A stretch of DNA of 64,000 nt from Phallusia mammillata. Taxonomy: Eukaryota. Position 1 is the first letter of the stretch, and the number at the start of each line of letters is the position of its first letter. Both the position numbers and the translations under genes were made by a program. Below, in pieces: positions 32,718 through 63,725 of the stretch. The stretch spans positions 25,482,001 to 25,546,000 of the forward strand of contig OZ281497.1 of NCBI GenBank assembly GCA_965637545.1, read 5' to 3'. The notes under the pieces are model-generated. The model had not been told where the DNA came from, searched no databases, and saw only the letters and a program-made list of their open reading frames with translations.

Positions 32718-34109
32718 TTATTTGTTTGAATCAAGTAGCGGAGTTTGAATGTTAGTTTGATTTGTTTCCACCTCCAATCTTCGATTTTTCGGCGACACCG
32801 AACAGCATAAAACAAGGCCTAGCAGTACGCCTACACATTGGAACACAAGTACACCGAGGCTTCCCCATGCATTAAATATACTTCTTCCCAATACACCCAA
32901 CAGCAAAGCGATCCCCGTTCTACTACCAGTGATCCATATGCTGACCAGCGTTTCGTCGATCGGATATGTCGACTGTGTGGCCGTTTCCAACAGCACCACA
33001 GAAACCAATCCCACAAATATACCAAATGATCCATTGGATATACAAATACCAATTGTGCTTTTGGATATTACACTCACGGCAATGGCAACTGTGCTTAAGA
33101 AAACAGCTATTATTTCAGATATTGCAAGAACTTTGTATTTTTTGCATCGGTCAACAACTTTTCCGCCAAGAATTAAACCGATTATATTCCCCAAACTGAA
33201 CGTGATCATAACATATCCGCTTAGTCGATCAGAAGTGATGTCATCAGCAATATTAACATCAGCAATCATTTCAGACATCATCAGGTTCTCCAACAACACC
33301 ATTTGCAACACCAACCCGATCGCGATGCATGTTATAACATATGACCAGTTCGTGAAAAGAATCTTATGCTCTTTCACAAAAGCTTTTAGTGTTTTAGTTG
33401 ATTGCTGTCTTTCGTTTTTTATGTCTTGCGCAAGAGTTGGTGGTGTGGGAGGTTTATCAGTGATGAAGATTGCAAACAAAATGGTTGATACAGCAGATAT
33501 ACCCAGCAACGAACCGTACAAGTAGCGCAATTGACGTTGACCCGATACAAGTTCACTAGGTGAAAAATTCTTGCTATTTGTCCAGGTTTGATTGGTAGAA
33601 GGCACAAGGTACGCAGGTAAAACGTAACCTGTTCCATCGCCAATAGGTATTCCCAGAATATTAGGTGCGATTGCAGTCCCAACCTGACTTTCAGGAAACC
33701 ACAAAACTGCAAAAGCTGCAGGCACAGCTATACCGACAGTCTCAGCTAAACCACATAAGATTTGCCCCATTACTATTAAAGCAAACAAAGATCGGTCAAC
33801 TAAAGACAATGTTACTAACAGAAGGCCGATTGTGGAGCTACCTGCGACAGTCAATATCATGTTTCGTAATCCAACTTTGCCTTTGAAGATTAACCATGCA
33901 AGCGGAAGAGTGATAAACAAAGCGTTGATGTTTCTTGTGTTGGTTATCCAATCCACTTGTTCGTGCGAGGCGTTGAAGAACCGAACGTAAAAATTGCTGA
34001 TTTGAGCGTAACTGGAAAATGAGATTCCGGAAAAAAACTGAAAAATTGTCAGTCCAACGAGAAAAGCCCATCTTCGTTTATACCACTGAAAATTATCCTG
34101 AGATTGCAT
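32718..34109 (-). CDS. SLC49/FLVCR-like MFS transporter, copy 1 (intronless, 463 aa)
   Basis: Intact ATG-to-stop ORF with about 12 hydrophobic segments; family motifs YKRRW (before TM1), LWFP, PPTPP (central loop), GGKVVD and TYP-E. Confidence 0.9.
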   Translation of the reverse strand: MQSQDNFQWYKRRWAFLVGLTIFQFFSGISFSSYAQISNFYVRFFNASHEQVDWITNTRNINALFITLPLAWLIFKGKVGLRNMILTVAGSSTIGLLLVTLSLVDRSLFALIVMGQILCGLAETVGIAVPAAFAVLWFPESQVGTAIAPNILGIPIGDGTGYVLPAYLVPSTNQTWTNSKNFSPSELVSGQRQLRYLYGSLLGISAVSTILFAIFITDKPPTPPTLAQDIKNERQQSTKTLKAFVKEHKILFTNWSYVITCIAIGLVLQMVLLENLMMSEMIADVNIADDITSDRLSGYVMITFSLGNIIGLILGGKVVDRCKKYKVLAISEIIAVFLSTVAIAVSVISKSTIGICISNGSFGIFVGLVSVVLLETATQSTYPIDETLVSIWITGSRTGIALLLGVLGRSIFNAWGSLGVLVFQCVGVLLGLVLCCSVSPKNRRLEVETNQTNIQTPLLDSNK

Positions 34110-34643
34110 CTTAAAAGATTCGCCCTCTTTAAAAGTTTTCGATTGTATTTCACCGCGATTGCTAACTTTCTACTGAACACTGGATCACATACTTTCACAT
34201 ATTGCTAATGTTCATTTGTGAACATAACGAAACAGGCTGTCAGCTCAAAAACATATATTCCAGGCAATGCTCACAGCTATTGGACGAACACTCGCCCAAC
34301 TCCCTATGTGGGCGTTGTAACATGCCGCGTTTGTCAAATGATTTGACAGGAGCATTAAAATGCTGTTCGTGTTGTTGGTCTATTCAAGGATTCCTCTCAG
34401 CTGTCAATCATCCAAATCTGTTATTTTTCGGAGAAAGTTCTGGCGGTGCGTTTACGCACCATGTTACCACCATCCGTAAAATCAATGGATTTCTGGCATA
34501 TAACGTTTGTTCGATACAAGCGTAATACATATTTTCTATTTATAACAGTTAAATAATATATCTTCAGAATAACTCGAAATCCAGTTAAGAAAAAGGCAAG
34601 AACACAAGTCACACCGAAAACCTACAATCAAATAAAGTTCGAT

Positions 34644-36041
34644 TTAGGACTTGTTTGTGGTAATTAGTGGAGTTTTAATGTCATTTTGAGTTGTTTCAAC
34701 TTCCAATCTTCGGTTTCGGGGCGAAACTAAGCAACATAACACAAGCCCCAGGAGCGTGACAGCACACTGGAAGGAAACTACACCAAGGCTTCCCCAAAGC
34801 TGAAACATGGTTCTTCCTAATACACCCAAAAGCAAAGCAACCGATGCTTGAAGGGGGGACATCCAAATATTGACCACCGTTTCGTCGATCGGATATGTCA
34901 GCTGTGTGACCATTTCAAACAGAACTACACTAGCCAATCCAACAAATATGCCAAATAATCCGTTGGATATGTACGTTCCTGTTGTGCTTTTGAACATGAT
35001 ACTAAGAGCAATTGCAACTGTGCTTAGAAAAACAGCTGCTGTTTCGGATATTGCAAGGACTTTGTATGTTTTGCAACGATCAACAATTTTTCCGCCCAAA
35101 ATCACACCAAATAAATCCCCCAAACTAAACACACTCATGATGTAACCACTTAGTCGCTCAGGAGAGATGTCACTTGCAATATTCATGTCTACTATGATTT
35201 CAGACATTATCATATTTTCCACCAACACCATTTGTATTATCAACCCGATCGTGATGCAGACTATGATATACGAACAGTTCGTGAACAGTATTTTGGTTTG
35301 ATTAAAAAAATTCTTAAATGTTCTTGGTTCCTGTTGTTCATCAGTTTTTATGTCTTGTGCAAGTGTGGGTGGTGTGGGAGGTTTGTCAGTGATGAAGATT
35401 GTAAACAAGACGGTTGCTACTGCAGATATACCCAGAAATGAACCGTACAAATAGCGTAAGTTACGTTGTCCTGATGCAAGCTCATTTGATGTTAGAATTT
35501 TTTGATTGGCTGAAGGGACAAGTAACGCGGGCAAAAAGTAACCTGTTCCATCGCCAATAGATATTCCTATCAAGTTGATTGCGATTGCAGTGCCGACTTG
35601 ACTTTCTGGAAACCAGAGAACAGCAAAGCTGGACGTCACAGATAAACTGACAGTCTCAGCCAATCCACATAAGATTTGTCCCATTACTATTAAAGCAAAC
35701 AAAGATCGGCTAACCAAGGACAAAGTTACTAAAAGAAGGCCAAGTGTGGAACTACCTGCGATTATCAATATTAGGTTTCTTGATCCAATGTCTCCCTTAA
35801 AGATGAACCATGCAAGCGGGAAGGTGATAAATATGGCGCTGATATTTCTTGCGTTAGTGATCCAATCCACTTGTTCTGGGGTTGCGTTAAAGAACTGAAC
35901 GTAAAAGTTGTTGATTTGACCATAGCTTGCAAATGAGATTCCTGAAAAGAATTGAAAAATTGACAGTCCAACGAGGAAAGCCCATCTTCGTTTATACCAC
36001 TTGAATGACCCTTGCCGAATTTCCCGTGCGTCAGAATTCAT
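34644..36041 (-). CDS. SLC49/FLVCR-like MFS transporter, copy 2 (intronless)
   Basis: Same motifs. The ORF-track start at 36047 is GTG; the first ATG is at 36041. Confidence 0.9.
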   Translation of the reverse strand: MNSDAREIRQGSFKWYKRRWAFLVGLSIFQFFSGISFASYGQINNFYVQFFNATPEQVDWITNARNISAIFITFPLAWFIFKGDIGSRNLILIIAGSSTLGLLLVTLSLVSRSLFALIVMGQILCGLAETVSLSVTSSFAVLWFPESQVGTAIAINLIGISIGDGTGYFLPALLVPSANQKILTSNELASGQRNLRYLYGSFLGISAVATVLFTIFITDKPPTPPTLAQDIKTDEQQEPRTFKNFFNQTKILFTNCSYIIVCITIGLIIQMVLVENMIMSEIIVDMNIASDISPERLSGYIMSVFSLGDLFGVILGGKIVDRCKTYKVLAISETAAVFLSTVAIALSIMFKSTTGTYISNGLFGIFVGLASVVLFEMVTQLTYPIDETVVNIWMSPLQASVALLLGVLGRTMFQLWGSLGVVSFQCAVTLLGLVLCCLVSPRNRRLEVETTQNDIKTPLITTNKS

Positions 36042-36180
36042 GTTCACTTCTAATTATGACTAGATTCTGTCGTAGTAAGATTTTGTTTTTTGAATAAAAT
36101 TTTCAGCAGAGTATGGTATTAACCAATTATAATGTATTTTCTGCATTCGGTCTGTGTTATACAATGCTGGTTGCTTTGTG

Positions 36181-37425: not shown

Positions 37426-38817
37426 TTATTTGTTTAAAGCCAGCAATGGAGTTTGGATGTTGATTTGATTTCTTCCCACTTCTAATCTTCGATTTTTGGA
37501 CGAAACCAGACAACAGAAAACAAGACCTACAAATATGCCTGCACACTGAAAAGATAGAACACCAAGGCTTCCCCAGATATTAAAAGCACTTCTTCCCAAT
37601 ACACCCAAAAGCAAAGCGAACCCCGTTTGAATTCCAATCATCCAAGCATTGACCAGCGTCTCGTCGATTGGATAAGTCAACTGTGTGGCCATTTCCAACA
37701 GGACTACAAAACTTGACCCGACAAATATGCCAAATAATCCATTGCATATGTACATGCCAATTGTGCTTTTCAACATTACACTTAGAATAATTCCAACTGT
37801 GCTAAGGAAAACGGCTGCTATCCCAGAAATTGCAAGAACTTTGTAATTTTTGAAATGATCAACAACTTTTCCGCCCAAAATTAATCCGATCAAATCACCT
37901 AAACTAAACATACTCATGATGCAACCACTTAGTCGCTCATAAGATATGTTACTTGCAATATTTATGTCTACTATGATTTCAGACATCATCATATTTTCCA
38001 CCAACACCATTTGTATTCCCAACCCGATCGTAATGCAGATTATTATATACGACCAGTTTGAAAAAAGCAGTTTGGCATGAATTATAAAACTCTTGAATGT
38101 TCTTGGTTCTTGTTGTTTATCAGTTTTTATGTCTTGTGCAAGAGTTGGGGGTGTGGGAGGTTTATCAGTGATGAAAATTGCAAACAAGATGGTAACGCAC
38201 GCAGATATGCCCAGAAACGAACCGTACATGTAGCGCAGTTGTCGTTTTCCGGATGTGAGTTCTTGTGATGTCAGCTTTCCCCCATATGTCCTGGTTTGGT
38301 TGAAAGGTTGAATTAGGAAGGGTGGTAAAACATAACCTGTTCCGTCGCCAATAGCTATTCCTAAGGAGTTGATTGCAATTGCAGTCCCGATCTGATTGTC
38401 TGGAAACCATAGAACAGCAAAGATTGATGTCATAGCTACACCGATAGTCTCAGCCAAGCCACATAAGATTTGCCCCATTACTATTAAACCAAACAAAGAG
38501 CGGTCAATCAGAGATAGAGTTACTAACAGAAGGCCGAGTGTGGAACTGCCCGCCATTATTAGTATCATGTTTCTTGGTCCAATTTTTCTTTTAAAAATCA
38601 GCCAAACAAGCGGAATAGTGATGAAAATGGCGTTAATGTTTCTTGCGTTGGTGATCCAATCCACTTGTGAGTGCGAAGCATTGAAGAACTGAACATAAAA
38701 GTTGCTGATTTGACCATAGCTTGTAAATGAGATTCCGGCGAAAAACTGAAAAATCGAGAGTCCAACGAGGAAAGCCCATCTTCGTTTGTACCACTTGAAA
38801 ACGTCTTGAGACTCCAT
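37426..38817 (-). CDS. SLC49/FLVCR-like MFS transporter, copy 3 (intronless, 463 aa)
   Basis: Same motifs. The ATG at 38817 (MESQDVFK) gives 1392 nt, the same length as copies 1 and 4. Nearly identical to copy 4. Confidence 0.9.
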   Translation of the reverse strand: MESQDVFKWYKRRWAFLVGLSIFQFFAGISFTSYGQISNFYVQFFNASHSQVDWITNARNINAIFITIPLVWLIFKRKIGPRNMILIMAGSSTLGLLLVTLSLIDRSLFGLIVMGQILCGLAETIGVAMTSIFAVLWFPDNQIGTAIAINSLGIAIGDGTGYVLPPFLIQPFNQTRTYGGKLTSQELTSGKRQLRYMYGSFLGISACVTILFAIFITDKPPTPPTLAQDIKTDKQQEPRTFKSFIIHAKLLFSNWSYIIICITIGLGIQMVLVENMMMSEIIVDINIASNISYERLSGCIMSMFSLGDLIGLILGGKVVDHFKNYKVLAISGIAAVFLSTVGIILSVMLKSTIGMYICNGLFGIFVGSSFVVLLEMATQLTYPIDETLVNAWMIGIQTGFALLLGVLGRSAFNIWGSLGVLSFQCAGIFVGLVFCCLVSSKNRRLEVGRNQINIQTPLLALNK

Positions 38818-44501: not shown

Positions 44502-45893
44502 TTAATTGTTTGAAGCCAGCAGTGGAGTTTGGATGTTGATTTGATTTCTTTCCACTTCTAATCTTCGATTTTTGGGCGAAACCAGACAGCAGAAAACAAG
44601 ACCTACAAATATGCCTGCACACTGAAACGATAGAACACCAAGGCTTCCCCAGATATTAAAAGCACTTCTTCCCAATACGCCCAAAAGCAAAGCGAACCCC
44701 GTTTGAATTCCAATCATCCAAGCGTTGATCAGCGTCTCGTCGATTGGATAAGTCAGCTGTGTGGCCATTTCCAACAGGACTACAAAACTTGACCCGACAA
44801 ATACGCCAAATAATCCATTGCATATGTACATGCCAATTGTGCTTTTCAACATTACACTTAGAATAATTCCAACTGTGCTAAGGAAAACGGCTGCTATCCC
44901 AGACATTGCAAGAACTTTGTAATTTTTGAAATGATCAACAACTTTTCCGCCCAAAATTACTCCGATCAAATCACCTAAACTAAACATACTCATAATGTAA
45001 CCACTTAGTCGCTCAGAAGAGATGTTACTTGTAATATTCATGTCTACTATGATTTCAGACATCATCATATTTTCCACCAAAACCATCTGCATTACCAACC
45101 CGATCGTAATGCATGTTATGATGTACGACCAGTTTGAAAAAAGCAGTTTGGCATGAATTATAAAATTTTTGAATGTTCTTGGTTCTTGTTGTACATCAGT
45201 TTTTTTGTCTTGTGCAAAAGTTGGTGGTGTAGGAGGTTTATCAGTGATGAAAATTGCAAACAAGATGGTAACGAAAGCAGATATGCCCAGAAACGAACCG
45301 TACATGTAGCGCAGTTGTCGTTTTCCGGATGTGAGTTCTTGTGATGTCAGGTTTTCGCCATATGTCCTGGTTTTGTTAAAAGGTTGAACTAGGAAAGGTG
45401 GTAAAACATAACCTGTTCCATCGCCAACAGCTATTCCTAAGGAGTTGATTGCAATTGCAGTCCCGATCTGATTGTCTGGAAACCATAGAACAGCAAAGAT
45501 TGATGTCATAGCTACACCGATAGTCTCAGCCAAGCCACATAAGATTTGCCCCATTACTATTAAACCAAACAAAGAGCGGTCAATCAGAGATAGAGTTACT
45601 AACAGAAGGCCGAGTGTGGAACTGCCCGCCATTATCAGTATCAAGTTTCTTGATCCAATTTTTCTTTTAAAAATCAGCCAAACAAGCGGAATGGTGATGA
45701 ATATGGCGCTAATGTTTCTTGCGTTGGTGATCCAATCCACTTGTGAGTGCGAAGCATTGAAGAACTGAACGTAAAAGTTGCTGATTTGGCCATAACTTGC
45801 AAATGAGATTCCGGCGAAAAACTGAAAAATCGAGAGTCCAACGAGGAAAGCCCATCTTCGTTTGTACCACTTGAAAACGTCTTGAGACTGCAT
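44502..45893 (-). CDS. SLC49/FLVCR-like MFS transporter, copy 4 (intronless, 463 aa)
   Basis: Intact ORF; recent paralog of copy 3, with shared flanks. Confidence 0.9.
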   Translation of the reverse strand: MQSQDVFKWYKRRWAFLVGLSIFQFFAGISFASYGQISNFYVQFFNASHSQVDWITNARNISAIFITIPLVWLIFKRKIGSRNLILIMAGSSTLGLLLVTLSLIDRSLFGLIVMGQILCGLAETIGVAMTSIFAVLWFPDNQIGTAIAINSLGIAVGDGTGYVLPPFLVQPFNKTRTYGENLTSQELTSGKRQLRYMYGSFLGISAFVTILFAIFITDKPPTPPTFAQDKKTDVQQEPRTFKNFIIHAKLLFSNWSYIITCITIGLVMQMVLVENMMMSEIIVDMNITSNISSERLSGYIMSMFSLGDLIGVILGGKVVDHFKNYKVLAMSGIAAVFLSTVGIILSVMLKSTIGMYICNGLFGVFVGSSFVVLLEMATQLTYPIDETLINAWMIGIQTGFALLLGVLGRSAFNIWGSLGVLSFQCAGIFVGLVFCCLVSPKNRRLEVERNQINIQTPLLASNN

Positions 45894-49546: not shown

Positions 49547-50080
49547 CTCGACAAACTCACAGTTTGCCTACAAGATCTGTTCCATTGCAGACACGCATGT
49601 TGTCTCAAGGCGTTTTTTTTTCACAACATCCTGTGGAGTTTTTCGCGACACATTCATCAATGGATTTGAAAGGAACGATTAGGCAATTTTTGTGGTTACC
49701 AAGTCTCTTCAAAACCCGCGGACAATCATAACCACTTTGTAACAATTCTTCTGCATATGTTAATTGTGCCGTGAATCCGTATTTACACATACACTTTGAA
49801 TAGCAGATACGTGTTTTTTGAGGAAAGTTTTGAAATCTGAATTGACTACTTGTTTGTTAGTACGTGTCACGCGAAACAGAAAGTTTCAATTGAAGCCTGT
49901 GTTTTTTTGACAGGCAACACCCGATACTTTCGTAAGGGCACATTAATGGTATCAGGCATTTCGTTGAATAGCATAATATCACAACACGATTATGCACACT
50001 TTTGAAACAAATCTGTTTTTCTGCTTTAGTGTATTGGATTTATGTCGACTTCGATACATATTTTCGTTGTTCCTGTTTCC
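49515..50080 (-). pseudogene. C-terminal remnant of X with no adjacent MFS gene
   Basis: Aligns by eye to about 39010-39560; translation TYAEELLQSGYDCPRVLKRLGNHKNCLIVPFKSIDECVAKNSTGCC. Confidence 0.5.
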
Positions 50081-50383
50081 AGTGCAAGACACCAATGCAG
50101 AGATTACCGTACTCTGTCCTGACAAGCCCAGGAGCTTGGGAGATTAAGGACGGTGGTATAAGTTATGTTTAGTTTGCAGTGCGATTTATCGCCTTAAGAT
50201 TTATTAGCAAACATTAAAATAAACCGATATCTCTATCTATCAATACATTATTACAAGTGTACATGTTTGAAACTAAATCAATGACACAACAAACACGATT
50301 TTTTGCTATTCGCTTTTGCGCCAAGGCCTTGATATAAAGTGAAGGACGATTGCAGTTTATTTAGTAACCAAGGAAAATATTAT

Positions 50384-51832
50384 TCATGTTATTTTCTGGT
50401 CAATTCCAGTTGATGATTTCCTTGGGTTCTTCACTTCAGGCAAGTTTCGTCCTGTCAATATGTCTTGCATTTCAAGTCTACGGTTTTTGGATGACACGAA
50501 GCATGTAAGGACAACACTAATAAACACACAAATACACTGAAACAGTAGAGCTCCGAAACGTTTGAATTGGTCGAACACAGCTCTGCCGATTACACCAAGT
50601 AGCAAAGCGATTGCTGTTTGAATCCCTGTCATCCAAGTGTTGACCAGCGTCTCGTCCACCGGATAGGTCAGCTGCGTGGCCATTTCGAACAGGACGACTT
50701 CAGTAAAACCAGAGAAAACTCCAAATAAGGAATTGCTGAAGTACACCATTGGAAGATAGTTTAATTGTACGCTGATCGCTATACCCACATTAGACGATAG
50801 CACCAGTGTTGTTCCGAGTATTGCGAATTGCTTGTAGTATTTATACTTGTCCACCAGCTTGCCGCCAAATGCTAAGCCTACTATGGAGCCGAGTGCAAAC
50901 GTGCTCATGATGTAACCACTCAAAACGTTTGGGTGGAGGCCGTTTGATGTTCTATGGGTCGTGTTGCTATTGTCATGTATAGTAACCGACCGTATAATCT
51001 CGGACATCATTAGGCTTTCAAGAATTACTATTTGAAAAATAATTCCGATTACAATTAGGATTTTCACGTACGAAGCATTTGTGAAGAGAACTTTAGTTTC
51101 AGTAAGAAAGTCCCGGAATGTGCGTATGGTTTCCGGTGTTTCCTCTCTTGCTTGGGTGGCTGTTGGCGGAGTTGGCGGTTTATCAGTAATAAATACCGCA
51201 AAAAACACGGTCGTTAGCAAAGTTACCACTGTGAAACAAGCAAACATGATGACAAGCCTACGTTGTCCCACGAGTAGTTTTCCTTCCGATAAAAGTGTGC
51301 TGTGATTTCCGCGGTGCGTTGGAAAGACAAGTGCGGGCGGTAAAATGTAACCTGTGCCATCACCCAAAAACAACCCGATGAAATTCACTGCTATGGCTGT
51401 ACCGACTTGCCTTTCTGGGAACCAAAACACGGCGAAAATGGAGGGCACACTCACTCCAACGGTTTCAGCCAGTCCGCTTAAAATTTGTCCAATCACAGCA
51501 ATGGAGATAAGGTTACGGTTGACAAGAGACGCTGTTACTAGAAGCAGTCCAAACGTCTGGCAAGTGCCTACCAGCAAAATGATATTCCGTAGACTGAATT
51601 TATGTTTAAAAATCAGCCATGCCAACGGAATTGTAATCAAGATTCCGCTGATATTCCTTGCGTTGGTGATCCAATCCACTTGGGCGTGAGAGGCATTGAA
51701 CAACTGAACGTAGAAGCTGCTTATTTGACCGAAACTGGCAAAGGAAATTCCAGACATGTACTGCAGGATAAAGAGAGCGCCAAGGAACAGCCACCTACGC
51801 TTGTAAAGGCGATAAGACTTGGTTTCAGCCAT
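50384..51832 (-). CDS. SLC49/FLVCR-like MFS transporter, copy 5 (intronless, 482 aa, most divergent copy)
   Basis: Intact ORF with YKRRW, WITNARNI, WFPERQVGTAIA, TDKPPTPP and TYPVDE. Confidence 0.9.
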   Translation of the reverse strand: MAETKSYRLYKRRWLFLGALFILQYMSGISFASFGQISSFYVQLFNASHAQVDWITNARNISGILITIPLAWLIFKHKFSLRNIILLVGTCQTFGLLLVTASLVNRNLISIAVIGQILSGLAETVGVSVPSIFAVFWFPERQVGTAIAVNFIGLFLGDGTGYILPPALVFPTHRGNHSTLLSEGKLLVGQRRLVIMFACFTVVTLLTTVFFAVFITDKPPTPPTATQAREETPETIRTFRDFLTETKVLFTNASYVKILIVIGIIFQIVILESLMMSEIIRSVTIHDNSNTTHRTSNGLHPNVLSGYIMSTFALGSIVGLAFGGKLVDKYKYYKQFAILGTTLVLSSNVGIAISVQLNYLPMVYFSNSLFGVFSGFTEVVLFEMATQLTYPVDETLVNTWMTGIQTAIALLLGVIGRAVFDQFKRFGALLFQCICVFISVVLTCFVSSKNRRLEMQDILTGRNLPEVKNPRKSSTGIDQKIT

Positions 51833-52971
51833 TTTGTGACTCTAAGCTAACTCAATACAAAGCCTTCATTAAAAAAACGTGTAAGCAATTGCAAGCGTAC
51901 ACGAATTTACGACACAAATGAGCTAAGTCAGGCCTAACTTTAATAAACTTTCGAGCTAATAAAACGTTTTTTTTTAATTGATAGACAAACGAACTTTAGA
52001 CAAATACATATTCAGACATTAAAACGCACTGTTACAATGCTGTTGATAACGTTTCTCAAAATTAATTTATGAGTTATGGACTGTAATAGTACATTTTTTT
52101 CCTGACTAAAACTTAACTACCACCAACTTTTTTTGCAGCAATACTGCTGTCTATTTATATTGTTACTTTTTATTGTGAAAAGTTTTTGAAGCCTGTTAAA
52201 ATCACAGTGACCATTTTTGGTCAAACCCCATCTATGCCCAAACACTGCATTTATCACCACTTGTTTTAGTGTGAGTCACTGCGTCGGGTTTTGTAAAATT
52301 GTGCATTGATTTCGCTATTCACTCTAAATAGGAAGTGACGGGCCAATTTGTATTTACAGGAATGTCTGTTCGTATTTACTATTGTAAACAAAACACGTTC
52401 TTTGTTTGTTTTTCCTTTATTTCATGTTAATTTTATTGTTGTATTCATGGTTAGTATAATTGTCTTTATTACTGACACATGTGCTTGTTTTTGACTTGCG
52501 TCCTTATTCTGTCTCTTTAAGCATTTCTTTCACCACACACTTTGTTGGCCTAGCAACTTGTATATTGGTAAGTTTAATTTTTCTGCAAGAAATGTTGGCT
52601 GAAGTAAAAGCCGATTGTTGAAACCGCTAGCCTTAACACTAAGATTTGCCAAAAAATTAATTGCTGTTGGTTTTGTAAGAAAACTCTAGATATTTTCTGG
52701 CCGTCTTTATTTTTGGATTTGTTAAGGATGACAACCCCAGTTAGGCTATATCTTTTTTTTCAAAGTTCTTTTTTATTGCGTCAAAGTTTCATTGTTCTTT
52801 TTGACATTGAACTATTGTTTCTGAATAACATGTTGTTGTATTTTTTGTAGACATTCATCTTTAGCACATTCTAGATTTCTATTAAAGTCAACATGTAAAA
52901 CAATAACAGATCATAAACAACACAAAATGCTTTACAACATAATACCGGTTTGACTATAATAACCGAAAGTG

Positions 52972-54381
52972 TTATTGTTGAGAGTTAAGCAACGGCGTTC
53001 TAGCATCTCGTTGTGTCTTCGCTCCACCTTTTTTCTTCTCAACTTCCAGTCTGCGATTCCTGGACGAGACTAACATCAATAACAGTATGCTCAAGAGCAC
53101 ACAAGCACATTGAAAGGCAAGCACCCCAATACTCTTCCAATGTTTGAACATAACCCTAGCAAGAATTCCCATCAGCAAACCTATTAAAGTTTGAATTCCG
53201 GTCATCCAAGTGTTGACCAGCGTCTCGTCTATCGGATAAGTCAACTGTGTGGCCATTTCAAACAGAACCACAGAACAAAACCCGGTCAAGAATCCAAACA
53301 ATGCGTTACATGCGTATAAGCCTGGAGTATTTCTGTATATTGCACTGATAAGGATTCCCAAAAGTGACAAGATGTCTGTAAACGTTCCACACAAAGCCAG
53401 AAGCTTGTATCGCTTACAACGGTCAACAACTTTTCCACCAACAGTGAGGCCAAGAATGGCGCCAACGCCGAATGTACACATGATGTAACCGCTCAACGTA
53501 GATGATGAAACGTGATGTGCCATGTGAAGATCAGCTATGATTTCAGACATCATCATATTTTCTATTAAGACAAGTTGAAACACAAATCCTATGATAATGC
53601 AAATTAGATCATATGAAGGTATGGAAAAAAGCTTTTTAGTTTCTAAGAAGAATTCCATTGTAGGCCTTTCAACTTTTTCTTCTTTATTCTTTAGATCTTG
53701 TGCAAACGTGGGTGGTGTGGGAGGCTTATCGGTCAAGAAAATCACAAACAAAATGGTTACAGCTGCAGATATGGCCAGAAATACTCCATACATGTAACGC
53801 AATTGACGTTGTCCTACTGCTAAAGCCCCAATGCTTAAAATTCCTTTGTGTTTTAATGTATGGTTCGAAGGTGTCACAAGATATGAAGGCAATGTGTATC
53901 CAACTTCATTTCCCACATACAGACCGACAACATTTAAAGCTATTGCTGTTCCGACTTGATTTTCTGGAAACCAAAGCACAGCAAAAGTTGATGGTGCTGC
54001 TACACCCACAGTTTCTGAAAGTCCGCAAAAGATTTGCCCAATTACTATCAGAGCAAACAACGAACGGTCAATTAGAGACAAAGTAACAAACAGAATACCG
54101 ATTGTCGAACTGCCAGCAATTATAAGCACCAATCCTCTTAATCCAATTTTATCCTTGAATACCAGCAAGGCAAGAGGAAATGTGATAAATATGGCGCTGA
54201 TATTTCTTGCGTTGGTGATCCAGTCCACTTGTCCTGGAGTTGCTTTGAAAAACTGAACGTAAAAAGTGTTGATTTGTCCGTAGCTGGCAAATGATATTCC
54301 GGCACAAAATTGTAGAACAAATAATCCGAAAAGAAGAATCCATCTCCGAGTATACAACTTCAACTGCTGGTCACTTTCCAT
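52972..54381 (-). CDS. SLC49/FLVCR-like MFS transporter, copy 6 (intronless, 469 aa)
   Basis: Intact ORF; most similar to copy 8. Confidence 0.9.
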   Translation of the reverse strand: MESDQQLKLYTRRWILLFGLFVLQFCAGISFASYGQINTFYVQFFKATPGQVDWITNARNISAIFITFPLALLVFKDKIGLRGLVLIIAGSSTIGILFVTLSLIDRSLFALIVIGQIFCGLSETVGVAAPSTFAVLWFPENQVGTAIALNVVGLYVGNEVGYTLPSYLVTPSNHTLKHKGILSIGALAVGQRQLRYMYGVFLAISAAVTILFVIFLTDKPPTPPTFAQDLKNKEEKVERPTMEFFLETKKLFSIPSYDLICIIIGFVFQLVLIENMMMSEIIADLHMAHHVSSSTLSGYIMCTFGVGAILGLTVGGKVVDRCKRYKLLALCGTFTDILSLLGILISAIYRNTPGLYACNALFGFLTGFCSVVLFEMATQLTYPIDETLVNTWMTGIQTLIGLLMGILARVMFKHWKSIGVLAFQCACVLLSILLLMLVSSRNRRLEVEKKKGGAKTQRDARTPLLNSQQ

Positions 54382-57300
54382 TGCTTATAAAATTGTGTAT
54401 TTATAATAAACTGCAATAAACGCTGATCCACTTTTGATGGACTTAGGCTATTCAGCTAACAGGTTTTTTTTCTATTCAACAAATTAGCTATAATTTTTTT
54501 GCAATTTTTTTTGCAAAAAAAAATAAATGATCGAAATTCTTTTTCCAACGAATTCAAAGGGGTTTCAAAATCCAAACAAACAATTTCATGTAAAATGTTT
54601 AAACAATTCGCAGGAATTTCAGAGCATGGAAGTCCTCGTCATTGGTGGATTAGCTCTTTTCCTGGATTTCAAAGAGAGTTTAGCAAAGTAATTAGAACTA
54701 AAAATGGAAGTCGACCAAAAACAGGAAGTTGGTATGATAGCCTTTAAAAAGCGACCGATATTCAGCAATAAAAACGCAAAAACTATAGTTTTAGGTTATC
54801 ATCCCGGATGCAACGGGAAAATATTTCAAAGTATTAAACCTGAAAAGTATACGGCCCGGTAACCAACTTCTCGCGGACCGGCACTGGACGGCGGACCGGC
54901 GGTTGCGACCATTGTTATAGCTTACATGTTTAAAAAATAAGAAACCGTTTTTGAATCACCGTAAACAGCAAAAATATAAGCTTCTTTCATCATTTTTATT
55001 ATTCGGTAAAAAGTTAGGCGTTAGTTTTTAACTTTTTTAGCGGCTCTCACCGGACGAATTTGTACTTGTTATTTCCGCAAAGCTGTGTAAGTGGTTACAC
55101 ATGCTTGTCGTACAACGACCGAATACTTAAACGGGAAACAGTCTGTTAAACTTATCTTAACCTTATTAAATACAATCTACTAACATTAAATTAACGCCTA
55201 ATTGCAGCTTGTAAGATATTTTTGACTTGCTGGCATAAAATGTGGCTTAAACCAATGCCTTCTCTTAGGTAAACAAGGCATGCCGGCTTTACCATAAAAC
55301 AATTCGCAGTGTCCGACAAAATAACAACAACATAAATACATAATAAGCTGATGGAAATCGTTTGGCAATCAGGTGTTAATGTTATCATTCCTAGAGGGTG
55401 ACAACATGTAAACGTCAACTTTTAGTAAACTAATTGGCAATAATAAACATATGTTTCACGAAAGGTTTAACTAAAGTTACCACATTCAATATTTTTTTAG
55501 AAAATTTTAATTATCAAGCGAAACTCATCGAGGCAATGACGTCAAGCGGAATTCCATAGAAATATTATTTTTGACTGAATATGAAACGCTCGTGAAAAGC
55601 ACAAAGAAACTTTCAAACTGGTTAGTACTGGTGTTGTAACGTTAAGCAAACATTTACACAAACAAAGAAATCGGTAGTTTTAAACTGTGCAGTCATTTCC
55701 GCTTCAATGTTGTCAACAAAAAAACAAAGGCTCGGTTGGCTATAATCATCTGTGAATATAGTAAGCCAGCCTAAGTTTGAACAAAACGGGCTTGATCCCA
55801 GCGTGACATTACGTTTGGCTACGTGTCGTAAAAATGTTGGCCCATGTAACTTTCGTGCTTTGCTTTTTAAATATATCGGCTTCGGGCTTGTACATTTGTA
55901 ACACGCCTTTGTAGTTCGGTGTAGACCTGTGGTTGTCACTTGTTGCAATGTTCATTAAAAGTATAAAAACCGGCGTATAAAATTTGATAGGTAAAACATA
56001 TCTGTCTTCCACGAGCACCAACCTACAGGTGCATTAACCTGTCACGGTGAGTGTCGCCGCTCACAAAACGAACACTGGGGACGCCACAGAACATGCGTGA
56101 CGTAATAATTGCGTAACACACTTGGATTCCTCTCTGCTAATAACTCAGCGATACAGCATTAGCACAAATGTTTTTTAGTCCAGCAAAGTGTTTGTTACGT
56201 TAGAAGCTGAAGAATTAAAATGTACCCATCCAGTTTGTGACTCTATTCATTACAATTATTCTTCAATTTGACGGGACGCATGTACAGTAAAGGAAATTAT
56301 TTCCAGACTACATGAATCTTGAATACAAAGATCCTATAATAAATCACATCGGCGATATGATAGCTGAATGGACCGAATTGTTTTGGCAGTCCTGGAAATG
56401 AATCCAACAGTTTCGGGTGGCGATATAACCTGTGTAAAACTCAAAGTTTTACCAATTTACCCAAAATTGTTAACATGCAAGATAGACCTTAACACTCTTA
56501 ATCTACCGAAGACTAATTTCTGTAGAAGGGCCAAAACCCATGGTACCAAAACTTTTCCAAGGCTAAAGTTAAGTACTTGCAAGAACGTCCATCAAAAACC
56601 GATCGATTGTTGTCCTTAAACTTCCAAGCTTATCAGGAGAGAATACTTGTATCTCCACACAGATATATCGCACTTCTTGTCCTTTGTGTATTGTTCTTTG
56701 ACAAAAGATTGCGACCGGCTAATGAGTTGAGTTTTTTTCGCTTGGTGAAAGACAACATAGTAACACAATTGCACTAAAACAATCACCAAGCCGGAAATAG
56801 CTGCGCAAGGTTAAAATGTTATGAAGCGCAAAAAATGTGTCGGGTACAATTGGTGGATACAGATGAATTTACAGATGAACTACATAATTAGAATAAAATG
56901 CCAGAAAACTGAACAATTGCCGTTTTACAATGTGGTAAAGGCTCTAAACTATACACATGTGCTCTTGCGATTGGCTCTCGTACAATTCCTGCACAAAGCA
57001 GCGTAAAATCACAAGACATGTCAAACTATAGTGTTGAAGCACGTAAACATAAGGTCAAAGAGTCACATCCGCACCTCAATTAACTGCCTGCTACGGGAAG
57101 TATTGCAAAGTCGGCGAAAGGATTAGGCAACGCATATGAATTAACTTGCTACACAATTTGACTTCCTTTCAGAACTTTGAGCTGGAATGTCGAAACGAGC
57201 GGATATGGTAAACAGCTATGGGAAAATCTGCACAAATTGTTTACATACATGCAAAGATTGATTGGTGTAGTTCTAGGCAGAAAAGTTGAGAATCGTTGCT

Positions 57301-58449
57301 ATAGTTGCGTTTGGAATATAAAGAAAAACTGTTATTCGTTACCTACTTGCACTCGCTGTGAGTGTTACGGTTTACGAATTTGCAACTAAACATATTTTTG
57401 CTGGGTTAACATTTATTTAATTGGTGTAGGCTAGTTCTGTTTGAAACGGTAACATAGTAGACAAAACCGTTTGCCGAAATCCTTATCATTAGTTGCATGA
57501 CTGCCGTCGGAAACAGGAATCGCTTTGCTTCTGTTGCTTGATTTTGCCTAAAACGTTTGGAGATATAGCAGGCCACCATTCGAATTCGATGCTGCCTGGT
57601 GTCTACAAGGATGCGGTTTCTATTCCTGTCGGATCGACATGGTTGCCCGAAGCAAGAATTTAGGTGAACAAGATCACCATGACCCCAAGCCGCATATTTG
57701 TACTAAAAAAGGCAGCCCGACGGCGGACGCATTGATAGTAAACGGCTTTTAGGGCAAGCGTTGCCAGTCTGCAGTGGAAAAAAATGACACCCCCGAACAA
57801 CTGGATTTGTGTGCACGATTTTCCAACGGTTCGTGCTGAAAAGAGTAAACCTACTCGCATGTAACCTCCGGTACTTCCTTCCAACAGCGACATGTTCGGA
57901 TGACTGACAACGTTTAAATGGACTTAGCAACCACAAATATTCTTTGAAAGTTTCTGTCATTTTTACTTGATCAATGTGTCACGCAAAAACTCAACACGAA
58001 CAAACAGGATGTAGCACAAAAATTCGTCGGATTTTTGCGTGTAGTGCCCACTGCCGTTAGTCGCAGTTCCCTTTGGTTTAGTGTCAAGCAATCTTGACTT
58101 TAAACTTTTGTCACTTACTGAAAAGCATTACAAATTCAGAAAACGAACTTAGAAATTTCAAACGGTGTCGATCTTTTTAGAAACTGTTTTCCAAGAAATT
58201 GATTTTCGGCAAACCGGACAACAACAGCTGTTATGAAAAGAGGGATATAAACGAAAGCGGAAATGAGTTAGCAGCTTATGTAGTTCTTTGGTTTAAAATT
58301 GTGCTGTAAACGATGATTTTGTACGCCTAGTATTTAAAAAGTTTATGCAAATGTAACACATGTAATGTATTATACCAGACTGCAAATTAAGCTAACCATA
58401 AAAGGTATAGATAAGCTTAAGGTGTAGCAACATTTTGTGACTAATATAA

Positions 58450-59865
58450 ATGCCAACAAAAAACATGACGCAAGTAAAGCTGTATAAGCGAAGATGGATT
58501 TTCCTTTTCGGAATATTTCTGCTGCAGTTTTGTGCTGGACAGTCGTTCGCCAGTTACGGGCAGATCAACTGGTTTTACGTTCAGTTTTTCAACGCAACAC
58601 CAGCACAAGTGGATTGGATCACCAACGCAAGAAACATCAGCGCCATATTTATCGTATTTCCTCTTGCCCTATTGATTTTTAAAGATAAAGTCGGATTGAA
58701 AGAACTTGTACTTTTAATCTCTGGTAGTGCGACAATTGGTTTTCTGTTTGTTACTTTATCTCTTATTAACCGTTCATTGTTTGCTCTGATAGTCCTTGGA
58801 CAACTTGTTTGTGGACTTGCCGACACTTTATGCTTGGCTCTCCCTGCGACGTTTGCTGTGCTTTGGTTTCCAGAAAACCAAGTTGGCAGTGCAATAGCGT
58901 TGAATACGCTGGGAATGTACTTTGGAACTGAGGTTGCTTATGTTCTTCCTTCGTATCTTGTAACACCTTCAAACCATACGTTACTGAAAGGCGAAGTTTT
59001 AAGCCTCAATGCTTTAGCTGCAGGACAAAGTAATTTGCGTTACATGTACGGTGCACTTCTGGCTATGTGTGCAGCTGTAACTACCTTGTTTGCAATTTTC
59101 TTGACTGATAAACCTCCCACACCACCAACATATGCACAAGAGCTAAAAAATAATGAGGTAAAGGTGCAAAGATCTACGATGGATTTTCTTGTGCAAACGA
59201 AGAATCTGTTTACCATACCTTCATATACTTTAATAACTGTCGCTCTCGGAATTGTTTTTCAACTGGAGTTAATTGAAAATATGTTTATGTCTGAAATCAT
59301 TGCTGAAATTCACATTTCGCACAACGTTGCACCTTCTACGTTAAGCGGTTATATCATGTGTATGGTTGGTGTTGGAGCCATCCTTGGCATTAGCATCGGT
59401 GGAAAAGTAGTTGATCGTTGCAAAAAGTATAAACTTCTTGCATTATGTACAACTGCATCTTTGTTTATTTCAACTGTGGGAATGGCAATTAGTGCACTCT
59501 GCAGAAACACCCCAGGAATATACGTATCCAACGCACTGTATGGATTCTTTACCGGGTTTTCTCTTGTAATACTGTTTGAAATGGTCACACAGCTGACTTA
59601 TCCCATCGACGAGACGCTGGTTAACACTTTGATGACCCCTATTCACACTATGATTGGTTTGCTGATGGGCGTAGTTGCAAGGGTCATGTTTCAGCATTGG
59701 AGAAGTATTGGGGTGCTTGCGTTTCAATGCGCTTGCGTGTTACTGGGTGTCCTGTTGCTGTTCCTAGTTTCGTCCAGAAATCGCAGATTGGAAGTTGGAG
59801 ACCAAAACGGGACTATTGCAAAACAAGAAAATGCTGAAACACCATTACTTAACTCTCAACAATAA
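58450..59865 (+). CDS. SLC49/FLVCR-like MFS transporter, copy 7 (intronless, 471 aa)
   Basis: Intact ORF with the same motifs, in the opposite orientation to copies 1-6. Confidence 0.9.
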   Translation: MPTKNMTQVKLYKRRWIFLFGIFLLQFCAGQSFASYGQINWFYVQFFNATPAQVDWITNARNISAIFIVFPLALLIFKDKVGLKELVLLISGSATIGFLFVTLSLINRSLFALIVLGQLVCGLADTLCLALPATFAVLWFPENQVGSAIALNTLGMYFGTEVAYVLPSYLVTPSNHTLLKGEVLSLNALAAGQSNLRYMYGALLAMCAAVTTLFAIFLTDKPPTPPTYAQELKNNEVKVQRSTMDFLVQTKNLFTIPSYTLITVALGIVFQLELIENMFMSEIIAEIHISHNVAPSTLSGYIMCMVGVGAILGISIGGKVVDRCKKYKLLALCTTASLFISTVGMAISALCRNTPGIYVSNALYGFFTGFSLVILFEMVTQLTYPIDETLVNTLMTPIHTMIGLLMGVVARVMFQHWRSIGVLAFQCACVLLGVLLLFLVSSRNRRLEVGDQNGTIAKQENAETPLLNSQQ

Positions 59866-61515
59866 CTGAAAACCTGGTTTCAGTGTGAAACCTTGGACGC
59901 CGAAACTTGTTATTTTGTTTATTATTTAACGAACCGTGTTTACCCACAATGCGACTTCTTTCTTGTGAGCCCCAGTCACACTACGCTTCTTAATTTGATG
60001 TAGCTGCAGAGCGTTTAGCCATGATGCACTAATGGTGCCCAACACAGTTTTGCTTCCATGTCGTTTTCACTTTGCGCAGCCATTTTCGGCTTGTGGTTTG
60101 TTTGCGGCTTGTGGATTGTTTTAGTGCAATTGTGTCTTTCACCAAGCGAAATAAACCCAAATCAAATTGCAATGTAGCTGCAGTGCGTTTAGCCGGATCA
60201 ATTGTGCCCTTTACTATTTTGTGTCCCATACGCTGTGCAATCATTTCCGCCTTGATTCTTGCTCTGCAATTGTGTGGTCATATGCTATTTCACACGAATC
60301 GAAATAAACTTTCTTCAACAAGTTCGACAAGTCGCTCATTATGCCATTTTCGCCATTCTTGAATTTCACAAGCCTCCATCGGTCATTGATCTCATTTCAA
60401 ACGACAAGTTATACGAAAAATTGCCCTAGTTTGAAACTATTGGAGTTTTATCGTTATATAAACTCATCAAATAAACTTTTGTATTGTACTTTTCTTTTGA
60501 TATGTGCGAATTGATGCAAGAAATTCAGCTTTTATCACGTACAACGGGATGCACGTTGTAAAGAATTTACTATTAAGCTGACCTTGCATTATTTCAGCAA
60601 GCCCAGAGAAGTCAAACTGAGAGTGAAATGGTGACAGAACCTAAATAACTTAGGTCTCAGTAGGCCCGTGCCTGATTTTTTGTTAAGAATAGCCCAAGAT
60701 TTAGTCGTAAAGTTAGATTTACCAATCTGAATCTACGACACAGATGTGGCAAAGTGCAAGGTTCTGAATTAAGCCCGTTTTTGTTCTTACTTTGGCCGAA
60801 CCAGAAAAGCTTGACTTAAAGGTTTGGTCCATAGCTAATAAATAGCTAAAACTTTGCACCAAATTTTTCGACTGCTGTTGCAAATATTGTACAGTTGACC
60901 AGAAAAGAGAAACCAAGCATTACTGACAACTCCAAAATTATGGCCAATACTTTTATGGGGACAATTTGATGTCGCTATTTTAGTGCTGCTGTCTAAATTT
61001 ACGATATCTAATCACCTTGAAATTAAAATCAACTAAAAAATAAATACAAACGTTTACCATAAAACGCGTTGACATAAAATGCTTCTGGCGCTTAGGCGTT
61101 GGCGCACGTTTTCTTGGAAAACAATGATGAGCTTTTAAGTTTAACAATGGAAAGGAACGAAAGCAAAAACAGAACATTAGTTTTCTGCTGCAAGCAAAGA
61201 AACGTCGATTTGTTGAAATTCAAATACTGTGTGTTCTGTGCATGAACGAATAATATGTCTCTGATTTATATCATTAGCGAGCATTTCACTCCTTTTTATC
61301 TGAAGTATTTTTGCAGTGCTGTACTATTTCTGAAACTGCTTTTGATGTTTAGAAATCCGATAGAGATATTTAGTTTGGGAGACTTGTTTTAATTTCTCTT
61401 GGCCACAATTTATGCTGAAACATTTTTTGTGCGTAAATTTATGAAATTAGTTTCAAGAGTATTAATGGTAAGCTTGTTTAAAGACATCCTTTGGCCTATT
61501 TTTTAAGTTGCTGGT

Positions 61516-61737: not shown

Positions 61738-62312
61738 ACACTAAATAATACTGGTAAATGCACAACAACATACACAAGCAATACAACTTAGATTTTATGT
61801 TCAAAGATGTTTTAAGTAACGTTTGCATAGACGTGGAACTCCATGAAAAGTTTCTGGGAAAAATGCGACAGTTCGTTGATTTACGTTGAAATAAACCGTG
61901 TGATGAATTCGTGGTCGGCGCGTGTCTTGTTCGACGCTGCGCGAGGATTCAACTTGATTTTGAAGTGGTTATTATGCAGTAATTCTATGTTGTTATTCGT
62001 GGTGTTGAGGCCCTACAGCAGACAGGGCAACTCAATTATGCGTAATCGAAACAGTTAACAAAATCCCGCATTAAAAACTTGTTGATCCCGCATAAAACAA
62101 AATCGTGGTGCCGCAACGAGTCTGTTAAGAAAGCAAATCGAGAGCAATCAAATTGCAGCAATAACTTGGATTTTCACACGAAAAGAAGTCCGACCATAGG
62201 TTTCATTTGTTACTGGATATTTACGTTCGGTTGTTTTTTTCGCAGAAATTGCAGTTCAAATTTAAAATAGGCTTTGCATTTGTCATATAAATAAATATAT
62301 ATTTCAATAGCA

Positions 62313-63725
62313 ATGGATGTGACCCAAGATCAATTTAAGTTGTACAAACGAAGGTGGGCATTTCTTTTTGGAATATTTCTTCTACAATTTTGTGCCGGAA
62401 TATCATTTTCCAGTTACGGACAAATCAACTGGTTTTATGTTGAGTTCTTCAAATCAACTCCAGCAACAGTGGATTGGATCACCAACGCAAGAAATATCAG
62501 TGCTATAGTCATAACATTCCCCCTTGCCTTTCTCATTTTCAAGGATAAAATTGGGCTAAGAGGACTCGTACTTGTCATCGGCGGCAGCTCTACCGTTGGT
62601 CTTCTGTTTGTTACTTTGTCTCTGATCGATCGTTCTCTGATTGCTCTGATAGTAATCGGACAAATCTTTTGCGGACTTTCAGAAACAGTTGCAGTCGGTG
62701 CCCCATCAACTTTTGCTGTGCTTTGGTTTCCAGAAAATCAAGTCGGAACGGCGATTGCTTTAAATGTTGTCGGTCTGTATGTGGGAACTGAAGTTGGATA
62801 CACATTGCCTTCATATCTTGTGACACCTTCGAACGATACCGTGGAATACAAAGGAATGTTAAGCCTTAAACATTTAGCAGCAGGACAACGTCAATTGCGT
62901 TACTTGTATGGGGCATTTCTGGCAATTTCTACAACTGTAACTTGCTTGTTTGTGATTTTCTTAACCGACAAACCTCCAACGCCACCAACTCATGCCCAAG
63001 ATTTGAAGAATAAGGAATTGAAACCTGAAAAGTTTGCGAAGGAGTTTTTTAATGAAACTAAACAACTTTTTTTAATGCCCTCTTATGCTTTAATCTGCAT
63101 AGTCATCGGATTTATATTTCAACTTGAACTAATTGAAAATATGATGATGTCTGAAATCATAGCTGATCTTCACATTGCGAAAAATGTTGAGCCATCTACA
63201 TTAAGCGGTTATATCATGTGTACATTCGGCGTTGGCGCTATTGTTGGCCTCACTTCTGGTGGCAAAGTAGTCGACCGTTTCAAAAGATACAAGCTTATGG
63301 CGTTATGCGGGGGTACTGCAGACTTCCTCTCGATTCTGGGAATTGCCATCAGCGCAATATGCAAAAACCCTTCAGGTTTGTATGCATGTAACGTATTGTT
63401 TGGATTCTTGACTGGCTTTACTATCGTAGTTCTATTTGAAATGGCTACACAACTGACTTATCCGATTGACGAGACGCTGGTGAACAATTGGATGACCGGA
63501 ATTCAAACTTTAATCGCTTTGCTGATGGGCATTCTCGCAAGGGTCATGTTTCATCATTGGAAGAGTATTGGGGTGCTTGCCTTTCAATGTGCTTGTGTGT
63601 TGATGGCTCTATTGATGCTAACCTTAGTTTCTTCGAGGAATCGTAGATTGGAAGTTGATGACCAAAGAGTGACAGATGAAAAACCAGAAGATGCTGAAAC
63701 ACCATTACTCAGCGCTCAAAAATAA
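62313..63725 (+). CDS. SLC49/FLVCR-like MFS transporter, copy 8 (intronless, 470 aa)
   Basis: Intact ORF with the same motifs. Confidence 0.9.
   Translation: MDVTQDQFKLYKRRWAFLFGIFLLQFCAGISFSSYGQINWFYVEFFKSTPATVDWITNARNISAIVITFPLAFLIFKDKIGLRGLVLVIGGSSTVGLLFVTLSLIDRSLIALIVIGQIFCGLSETVAVGAPSTFAVLWFPENQVGTAIALNVVGLYVGTEVGYTLPSYLVTPSNDTVEYKGMLSLKHLAAGQRQLRYLYGAFLAISTTVTCLFVIFLTDKPPTPPTHAQDLKNKELKPEKFAKEFFNETKQLFLMPSYALICIVIGFIFQLELIENMMMSEIIADLHIAKNVEPSTLSGYIMCTFGVGAIVGLTSGGKVVDRFKRYKLMALCGGTADFLSILGIAISAICKNPSGLYACNVLFGFLTGFTIVVLFEMATQLTYPIDETLVNNWMTGIQTLIALLMGILARVMFHHWKSIGVLAFQCACVLMALLMLTLVSSRNRRLEVDDQRVTDEKPEDAETPLLSAQK

What the first reader, a model, noticed from the sequence alone, without database searches (positions are those of the whole stretch)
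32718..63725. Array of eight intact, intronless SLC49/FLVCR-like transporters
Eight full ORFs with no introns sit beside intron-rich neighbours. They fall into subgroups (1-4; 5; 6-8), ranging from near-identical (3 and 4) to strongly diverged, yet none is disrupted. Vertebrate SLC49 genes are few and multi-exon. Inference: a retrocopy founder followed by tandem amplification under selection, giving a lineage-specific transporter repertoire (for example for small amines, metabolites or toxins). The array may continue past the right edge.
Basis: partly seen in the sequence, partly recalled or inferred. Interest (0 to 1): 0.7.

Follow-up and report, generated by a model that had tools for sequence, protein, structure and literature searches.

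The report
Sea-squirt transporter family, rebuilt binding pocket
These eight genes are one end of a family of at least 77 sea-squirt transporters related to the human choline carrier FLVCR; they lack its choline-gripping residues, often carry a lysosome-type address motif, and likely move other small molecules across internal vacuole membranes.

Summary
The eight intact single-ORF genes are real and fold like FLVCR1/2 (SLC49). They are the left end of a 112-kb array of 18 intact and 13 broken or relic copies. The genome (ascidian; proteins 99-100% identical to Phallusia mammillata records) holds at least 76 intact single-exon-CDS paralogs on 7 contigs, one two-exon member and about 46 broken loci: birth-and-death evolution, dN/dS 0.1-0.4. 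Five ordinary multi-exon SLC49 genes coexist. The clade includes Ciona, Clavelina and Styela proteins, so it is old and ascidian-wide, not a young local retrocopy. AU tests reject either resident FLVCR as its sister. One copy has a 5' leader intron. The choline site is gone: essential Trp in 0 of 76 paralogs, against 28 of 36 FLVCR-like proteins. Pocket chemistry varies: the window genes have Arg+Glu/Asp, a C8 subclade has four Arg. Acidic dileucine motifs are enriched in the tails (36/76; 5.3 expected), as in lysosomal SLC49A4. Best reading: a diversified, likely endolysosomal or vacuolar, non-choline solute-carrier repertoire. Substrates and localisation are untested. FLVCR-like expansion has a precedent in a velvet mite.

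The parts
32718..34109 (-). Gene 1, SLC49-clade MFS transporter, 463 aa, single-exon CDS; pocket F/R/E; tail QTPLL
34644..36041 (-). Gene 2, 465 aa; pocket F/R/E; tail DIKTPLI
37426..38817 (-). Gene 3, 463 aa; recent duplicate of gene 4 (93.5% aa, dS 0.09, dN/dS 0.33)
44502..45893 (-). Gene 4, 463 aa; covered by contigs with 0-2 mismatches in 3 of 4 putative RNA runs (2 studies)
50384..51832 (-). Gene 5, 482 aa; most divergent (47-52% to the others); the only one without the C-terminal TPL[LI] motif
52972..54381 (-). Gene 6, 469 aa; tail DARTPLL
57259..57533 (+). Decayed relic of a ninth copy (3' part, stops in all three frames)
   Evidence: nhmmer E 7.9e-14; translation
58450..59865 (+). Gene 7, 471 aa; pocket F/R/D, with an extra Glu in TM7
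62230..62245 (+). Putative splice acceptor of a 5' leader intron of gene 8 (T-rich tract + CAG, 67 nt before ATG); inferred from the spliced paralog
62313..63725 (+). Gene 8, 470 aa; AlphaFold2 model pLDDT 88, 12-helix MFS fold, TM-score 0.81 to FLVCR1; pocket F32, R60, N61, E124, L155, E272, L273, T399

Best explanation
The eight genes belong to an old, ascidian-wide, single-exon branch of SLC49 transporters that keeps the FLVCR fold, lacks the choline-binding residues, and likely carries other small solutes across endolysosomal or vacuolar membranes. Shown: fold; clade; copy number; birth-and-death pattern; purifying selection; loss of W102/Y325/Q447 equivalents; varied pocket chemistry; enrichment of dileucine motifs in the tails. 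Inferred: (1) origin by retroposition or full intron loss in an ascidian ancestor, then tandem and dispersed DNA duplication; (2) rocker-switch transport as in FLVCR; (3) sorting to lysosomes or vacuoles by the tail motif, as shown for SLC49A4; (4) for the window's subclade, a zwitterionic substrate (amino acid, taurine- or betaine-like osmolyte), amine on Glu124 in TM4 and acid group on Arg60 in TM2; other subclades with 3-4 pocket arginines would carry anions.
For: Fold: Foldseek ranks 1-12 are FLVCR1/2 (E 1.6e-19 to 4e-17, TM 0.78-0.82); the next family is at 6e-9. The profile alignment to FLVCRs has probability 100 and is gapless through TM1, 2, 4, 5, 7 and 11, which fixes residue equivalences. 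Clade support 99-100 SH-aLRT. 76 intact single-ORF members; two further query searches and 187 kb of gap filling gave no new intact copy. 46 broken loci (53 listed, minus 6 exons of canonical genes and the two-exon member). dN/dS 0.10-0.44 for close pairs. W102 in 0/76 own and 0/101 other clade proteins versus 28/36 FLVCR-like; Y325 0/76; Q447 0/76. W125A abolishes FLVCR1 uptake (PMC10557757, passages), and FLVCRs do not bind betaine (PMC11168923, section 7). The eight pocket columns are near-invariant in FLVCRs (entropy 0.12 vs 1.04) but change chemical class more than other TM columns in the family (P 1e-4 uncorrected; P 0.009 by parsimony on the tree). R60 in 28/29 and E/D124 in 23/29 of the window's subclade. 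Strict [DE]xxxL[LI] in a tail: 36/76 own (shuffled 5.3), 61/101 other members (7.7), 3/36 FLVCR-like (2.4). SLC49A4 needs such a motif for lysosomal targeting (PMC9719028, passages).
Against: No transport, localisation or tissue data. The window's own tails are the non-canonical TPL[LI] form (7 of 8), without the acidic residue at -4, so their targeting is less certain than the family average. Counted as plain amino-acid changes on the tree, the pocket excess is not significant (21.0 vs 18.1, P 0.14). Loss of the FLVCR residues is not special to the pocket: only 35% of other FLVCR-invariant TM residues are kept. Pocket orientation rests on alignment, not on inspected coordinates. R60-E124 could be an internal salt bridge or a proton-coupling pair. 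No parent gene, poly-A tail or target-site duplication supports retroposition.
Confidence: 0.55

Rival explanations
1. Plasma-membrane or basolateral carriers of gut and branchial epithelia that take up dietary solutes or export algal and bacterial xenobiotics; the dileucine motif would serve endocytosis or basolateral sorting.
For: Birth-and-death arrays with varied pockets are typical of detoxification and nutrient families (own knowledge). FLVCR1/2 are plasma-membrane uniporters (PMC11168923). Window tails are non-canonical. Two genes labelled 'SLC49A3-like' are salinity-response hubs in an invasive ascidian (PMC10159005, passages and two supplement rows); whether they belong to this clade was not testable.
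Against: The strict acidic motif is strongly enriched and in C-tails is absent from FLVCR-like proteins (0/36). The closest tested example in the family, SLC49A4, is lysosomal.
Confidence: 0.25
2. Dosage amplification of choline/ethanolamine transport.
For: Database names read 'choline/ethanolamine transporter flvcr2a-like'. Trp to Phe in 41/76 could keep a weak cation-pi contact.
Against: Y153, Y349 and Q471 equivalents are also replaced, and an Arg sits in the pocket. Two canonical FLVCR genes with an intact site remain. 53 distinct pocket strings among 76 paralogs (nine positions).
Confidence: 0.06
3. Chemosensory 'transceptors': a receptor-like repertoire that senses rather than carries solutes.
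For: The genomic pattern (single exon, clusters, pseudogenes, variable pocket) resembles chemoreceptor families. That tunicates lack vertebrate-type odorant receptors is recalled, not checked here.
Against: Short tails (mean about 20 aa) with sorting motifs and no signalling domain; normal MFS fold; no expression evidence in sensory cells.
Confidence: 0.05
4. Origin rival: the clade is a deep fifth SLC49 lineage kept only in ascidians, or came by transfer from another eukaryote, rather than being a retrocopy of an ascidian FLVCR or SLC49A4.
For: AU tests reject sisterhood with resident FLVCR-C1 (p 2.7e-5; mixture model 0.0013), FLVCR-C8 (3.7e-5; 0.00065) and SLC49A3 (3.6e-4). The mixture tree places it beside all FLVCRs (88 SH-aLRT).
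Against: Long branches can pull a fast clade outward and bias the AU test. All 11 named members are ascidian. The genome shows a second, clear intron-loss event: two single-exon SLC49A3 copies sister to a multi-exon SLC49A3 (90-92 SH-aLRT).
Confidence: 0.3

Closest known systems
FLVCR1/FLVCR2 (SLC49A1/A2), choline/ethanolamine uniporters
   Same: Fold (TM 0.78-0.82), 12-TM layout, scaffold motifs RRW, WF, PPxPP, TYP; nearest branch in the mixture tree.
   Different: About 20-22% identity; W102, Y325, Q447 equivalents absent in 76 of 76; single-exon CDS versus 10-11 exons; at least 77 copies versus 2; tail dileucine motifs.
SLC49A4/DIRC2, lysosomal H+-driven pyridoxine exporter
   Same: SLC49 member with an acidic dileucine signal and no Y325 equivalent; sisterhood not rejected (AU p 0.43).
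   Different: DIRC2 keeps the TM1 Trp, has its motif at the N-terminus and is a single multi-exon gene here; the family's motif is mostly C-terminal.
FLVCR-like expansion of the velvet mite Dinothrombium tinctorium (PMC6275457, passages)
   Same: Lineage-specific amplification to tens of divergent FLVCR-like genes (clusters of 47, 27 and 21; about 25-30% identity).
   Different: Different phylum; the passages read give no exon structure, pocket analysis or sorting signal, and propose heme or circadian roles.

Membership tests
MFS | 12-TM, two six-helix bundles; MFS_1 profile | tested here: met
   Pfam MFS_1 76-104 bits vs cut-off 33.4 in 8 of 8; model pLDDT 88
SLC49 | Closest sequence and fold relatives are SLC49 proteins | tested here: met
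   5 of 5 PDB sequence hits and fold ranks 1-12 are FLVCR1/2; hhalign E 6.6e-65
SLC49 | Groups inside SLC49 in a tree | tested here: met
   Joins FLVCR + SLC49A4 to the exclusion of SLC49A3 and fungal rows, 98-99 SH-aLRT; outgroup limited to two fungal SLC49-like rows
FLVCR1/2 choline transporters | Cation-pi pair W125/W102 and Y349/Y325 | tested here: not met
   0 of 76 for each; kept in both resident FLVCR genes
FLVCR1/2 choline transporters | Q214/Q191 and Q471/Q447 | tested here: not met
   Q191 in 3 of 76, Q447 in 0 of 76; E or D at 191 in 8 of 8 window genes
FLVCR1/2 choline transporters | Orthology to chordate FLVCR | tested here: not met
   Outside the FLVCR clade in all trees; AU rejects sisterhood with resident FLVCRs; long-branch bias possible
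FLVCR1/2 choline transporters | Choline/ethanolamine transport | not testable with these tools
   needs uptake assay
SLC49A4/DIRC2 | Acidic dileucine lysosomal signal | tested here: inconclusive
   Strict motif in 36 of 76 family tails; window genes carry only the TPL[LI] variant
SLC49A4/DIRC2 | Orthology to SLC49A4 | tested here: inconclusive
   Neither shown nor rejected (p 0.43, LG+G4); the mixture-model test was not finished; a separate true ortholog exists on C3
SLC49A3/MFSD7 | Orthology to SLC49A3 | tested here: not met
   AU p 3.6e-4
Retrogene family | No coding introns while relatives are multi-exon | tested here: met
   76 single-ORF members vs five canonical genes of 8-11 modelled exons; one nested member has one intron at a position and phase not shared with them
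Retrogene family | Identifiable intron-bearing parent as sister | tested here: not met
Retrogene family | Poly-A remnant and target-site duplication | not tested
   not expected to survive at this age

The most novel reading that the evidence does not exclude
The clade is the solute-handling kit of the acidic storage vacuoles of ascidian blood and tunic cells: dileucine-sorted carriers, the four-arginine C8 subclade moving polyanions (sulfate, vanadate or its complexes, sulfated metabolites) and the window's Arg/Glu subclade moving aromatic amino-acid precursors of tunichrome-type peptides. That ascidians such as Phallusia store vanadium, acid and such peptides in vacuoles is established knowledge recalled here, not tested.
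Probability: 0.12. Interest if true: 0.8.

Novelty: new variant of a known kind. Interest (0 to 1): 0.5.

Why it matters
Vertebrates have four SLC49 genes, only recently assigned substrates. This ascidian adds at least 77 paralogs that keep the scaffold but carry 53 different pocket combinations, from aromatic-polar to four-arginine: a natural library for how the FLVCR fold sets substrate choice. Automatic annotation calls them choline/ethanolamine transporters, which the residues contradict. If vacuolar, they are ready candidates for unexplained solute storage in ascidian cells, and the LL-to-AA redirection used for DIRC2 makes that testable. Lineage-specific transporter expansion itself is a known phenomenon, which limits the surprise.

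Tried and rejected
Assembly artefact: rejected for the window (pairs differ by dS 0.09 to saturation; two DNA-like runs hold 94-95% of the words of 50001-60000, possibly the source sample). One pair on C2 is 100% identical and may be an artefact. Bacterial transfer: no support; all PDB sequence hits and Atlas clusters are eukaryotic. The two-exon member on C7 as parent: rejected; it nests deep and its phase-0 intron matches no canonical intron (nearest is a phase-2 SLC49A4 intron about two codons away). Expression: no RNA holder listed for 50001-60000. Genes 5-7 had no or only scattered contig cover in the 4 of 12 putative RNA runs laid, which is no evidence either way. Contigs over gene 8 differ at 5-6% and likely come from a paralog beyond the window. 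Genes 1-3 remain untested. The careful 31-row mixture tree did not finish and the quick tree is cited; three of five mixture AU tests were not run for time. Metagenome scan with one member gave 4 loci, single-ORF where held, with no informative neighbours. Literature: nine searches found no description of an ascidian SLC49 expansion; subscription papers are not covered, PMC13160678 had no relevant passage, and file 13 of the PMC10159005 supplements was not searched. The scan's earlier notes returned nothing. No codon-model test of positive selection was available.
Full report
OBSERVATION. Eight ATG-to-stop ORFs of 463-482 aa lie at 32718-63725, genes 1-6 on minus and 7-8 on plus. All eight pass the Pfam MFS_1 cut-off. 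The only PDB sequence hits for gene 8 are FLVCR2 and FLVCR1. A decayed ninth copy sits at 57259-57533.

ORGANISM. P0002 and P0003, named Phallusia mammillata proteins, are 100% identical to ORFs in the array's continuation; P0001 and P0031 are 99.4-99.6% identical to others. The genome is therefore this ascidian or an extremely close one.

EXTENT. The window is G000:C4:25482001-25546000. The array runs to C4:25626673, 112 kb, with 18 intact genes, 12 broken loci beyond the window (three under 200 bp) and the relic inside it. Some single-lesion copies may be alleles or sequence errors. Across the stretches fetched around all search hits I found 78 full-length single-ORF SLC49 genes (C4 34, C8 20, C2 8, C1 6, C6 6, C5 3, C7 1): 76 of one clade plus two SLC49A3-like. 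One more clade member has two exons. Of 131 homologous loci, 53 are not intact single ORFs; removing 6 exons of canonical genes and the two-exon gene leaves 46 broken or partial. Searches score only the best candidates, so these are lower bounds, but two more queries and 187 kb of gap filling added no intact gene.

GENE STRUCTURE. Five conventional multi-exon SLC49 genes were modelled by spliced alignment: two FLVCRs, two SLC49A3 and one SLC49A4, of 8-11 exons. The expanded clade shares none of their coding introns. P0001 joins two genomic pieces across a 64-nt GT-AG intron upstream of the conserved start, so at least some copies have a 5' leader intron. That these records derive from mRNA is recalled, not shown by a call. 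A member from a metagenome contig is also a single ORF.

PHYLOGENY. The clade has 99-100 SH-aLRT support. Every member that carries a name is ascidian: Phallusia 4, Clavelina 2, Styela 3, Ciona 2; most of the 101 non-own rows are unnamed. One member (C8:8002944) groups with or best matches single Clavelina, Styela and Ciona proteins, so the family predates the split of these lineages. The window's genes fall in a 29-member group made only of own-genome rows (FastTree; rows under 380 or over 760 aa and near-duplicates dropped); close relatives could be hidden by 50% clustering. The clade lies on the FLVCR/SLC49A4 side. AU tests reject sisterhood with SLC49A3 (p 3.6e-4) and with either resident FLVCR (2.7e-5 and 3.7e-5; mixture model 0.0013 and 0.00065), but not with SLC49A4 (0.43). 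No parent is identified. Retroposition is inferred from intron absence only, and long-branch attraction may be at work.

SELECTION AND EXPRESSION. Nei-Gojobori dN/dS is 0.11-0.33 in 24 of 28 window pairs (4 saturated) and 0.10-0.44 in family pairs with at least 70% identity and dS under 0.8. Ages run from dS 0 to saturation: continuing birth and death. Contigs of 3 of 4 putative RNA runs (2 studies) cover gene 4 with 0-2 mismatches (that these runs are RNA is the tool's guess).

POCKET. The AlphaFold2 model of gene 8 (pLDDT 88, pTM 0.85) matches FLVCR1/2 best. The profile alignment is gapless through the pocket helices. Published choline contacts are W125/W102, Y349/Y325, F348/F324, Q214/Q191, Q471/Q447, Y153, M154 and N245 (PMC11168923, passages and section 7; PMC10557757, passages). 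Both resident FLVCRs keep them, one with Tyr for F324. The clade keeps W102 in 0/76 and 0/101 rows, against 28/36 FLVCR-like rows; Y325 and Q447 in 0/76. All eight window genes have Phe, Arg and Glu/Asp at the W102, Y153 and Q191 positions, plus a TM7 Glu. Ten paralogs have four Arg/Lys among nine pocket positions and eight have three. Pocket columns change chemical class more than other TM columns (P 1e-4; tree-based P 0.009), but the plain amino-acid count is not significant (P 0.14), and much of the rest of the FLVCR-invariant set has also diverged (35% kept).

SORTING SIGNAL. A strict [DE]xxxL[LI] motif lies in a cytosolic tail of 36/76 own and 61/101 other members (shuffled 5.3 and 7.7) and 3/36 FLVCR-like rows (2.4). 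Seven of eight window genes end in the variant TPL[LI]. Human SLC49A4 depends on ERQPLL for lysosomal targeting (PMC9719028, passages).

MECHANISM. Most likely these are alternating-access carriers of non-choline solutes on endolysosomal or vacuolar membranes, each paralog tuned by its pocket; the window's Arg/Glu pocket fits a zwitterion. Fold, residue loss, motif enrichment and evolutionary pattern are shown; origin, location and substrate are inferred. Confidence 0.55. Rivals: epithelial nutrient or xenobiotic carriers (0.25), choline dosage (0.06), transceptors (0.05).

KNOWN VERSUS NEW. Member of SLC49: yes. Member of the FLVCR choline transporters: no, the defining residues were tested and are absent. 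A comparable FLVCR-like expansion is reported in a velvet mite (PMC6275457, passages). Nine literature searches found no account of the ascidian clade. Verdict: new variant of a known kind, interest 0.5.

Noticed in passing
G000:C1:12363976-12365448 and 12373520-12374998 (L084, L083): Two intact single-exon SLC49A3 copies, sister to the 8-exon SLC49A3 at C4:18427-18431 kb: a second, independent retrocopy-like event with an identifiable parent.
   Followed up: partly
G000:C8:15582205-15666294: Second large array of the family; many members have Arg at four pocket positions (TM1, TM2, TM5, TM7), suggesting anion binding.
   Followed up: partly
G000:C7:7518134-7519969 (L106): Family member with one 312-nt phase-0 GT-AG intron in the TM5-TM6 loop, nested among single-exon genes: likely intron gain.
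   Followed up: yes
G000:C4:25564823-25571197 (L032-L033): Pao/BEL-type retrotransposon with long ORFs (Peptidase_A17, integrase zinc finger, DUF5641) inside a recently duplicated block of about 6 kb (96% identity) of the array.
   Followed up: partly
G000:C2:14890009 and 14907330 (L011, L012): Two family genes 100% identical in DNA, 17 kb apart: very recent duplication or assembly duplicate.
   Followed up: no
G000:C1:11732067-11739227 (L099-L100): A second multi-exon FLVCR with an intact choline site, about 21 kb from a single-exon family member; the trees reject it as the family's sister.
   Followed up: yes
window about 9300-28000 (-) and 6955-7260 (-): Multi-exon BTB-BACK-Kelch gene, and an exon with a weak ubiquitin-like match (E 5e-4; midnolin-like by recall); the first 5 kb is GC-richer (0.49 vs 0.37).
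   Followed up: partly
window 47235-47580, 48134-48205, 54843-54882, 56723-56835: Short interspersed repeats between the genes, matched by many unrelated contigs in the putative RNA runs.
   Followed up: no
P0036, P0054, P0065: Unnamed proteins holding two or three FLVCR-like units that keep the Trp: fused models of tandem FLVCR copies in another lineage.
   Followed up: no
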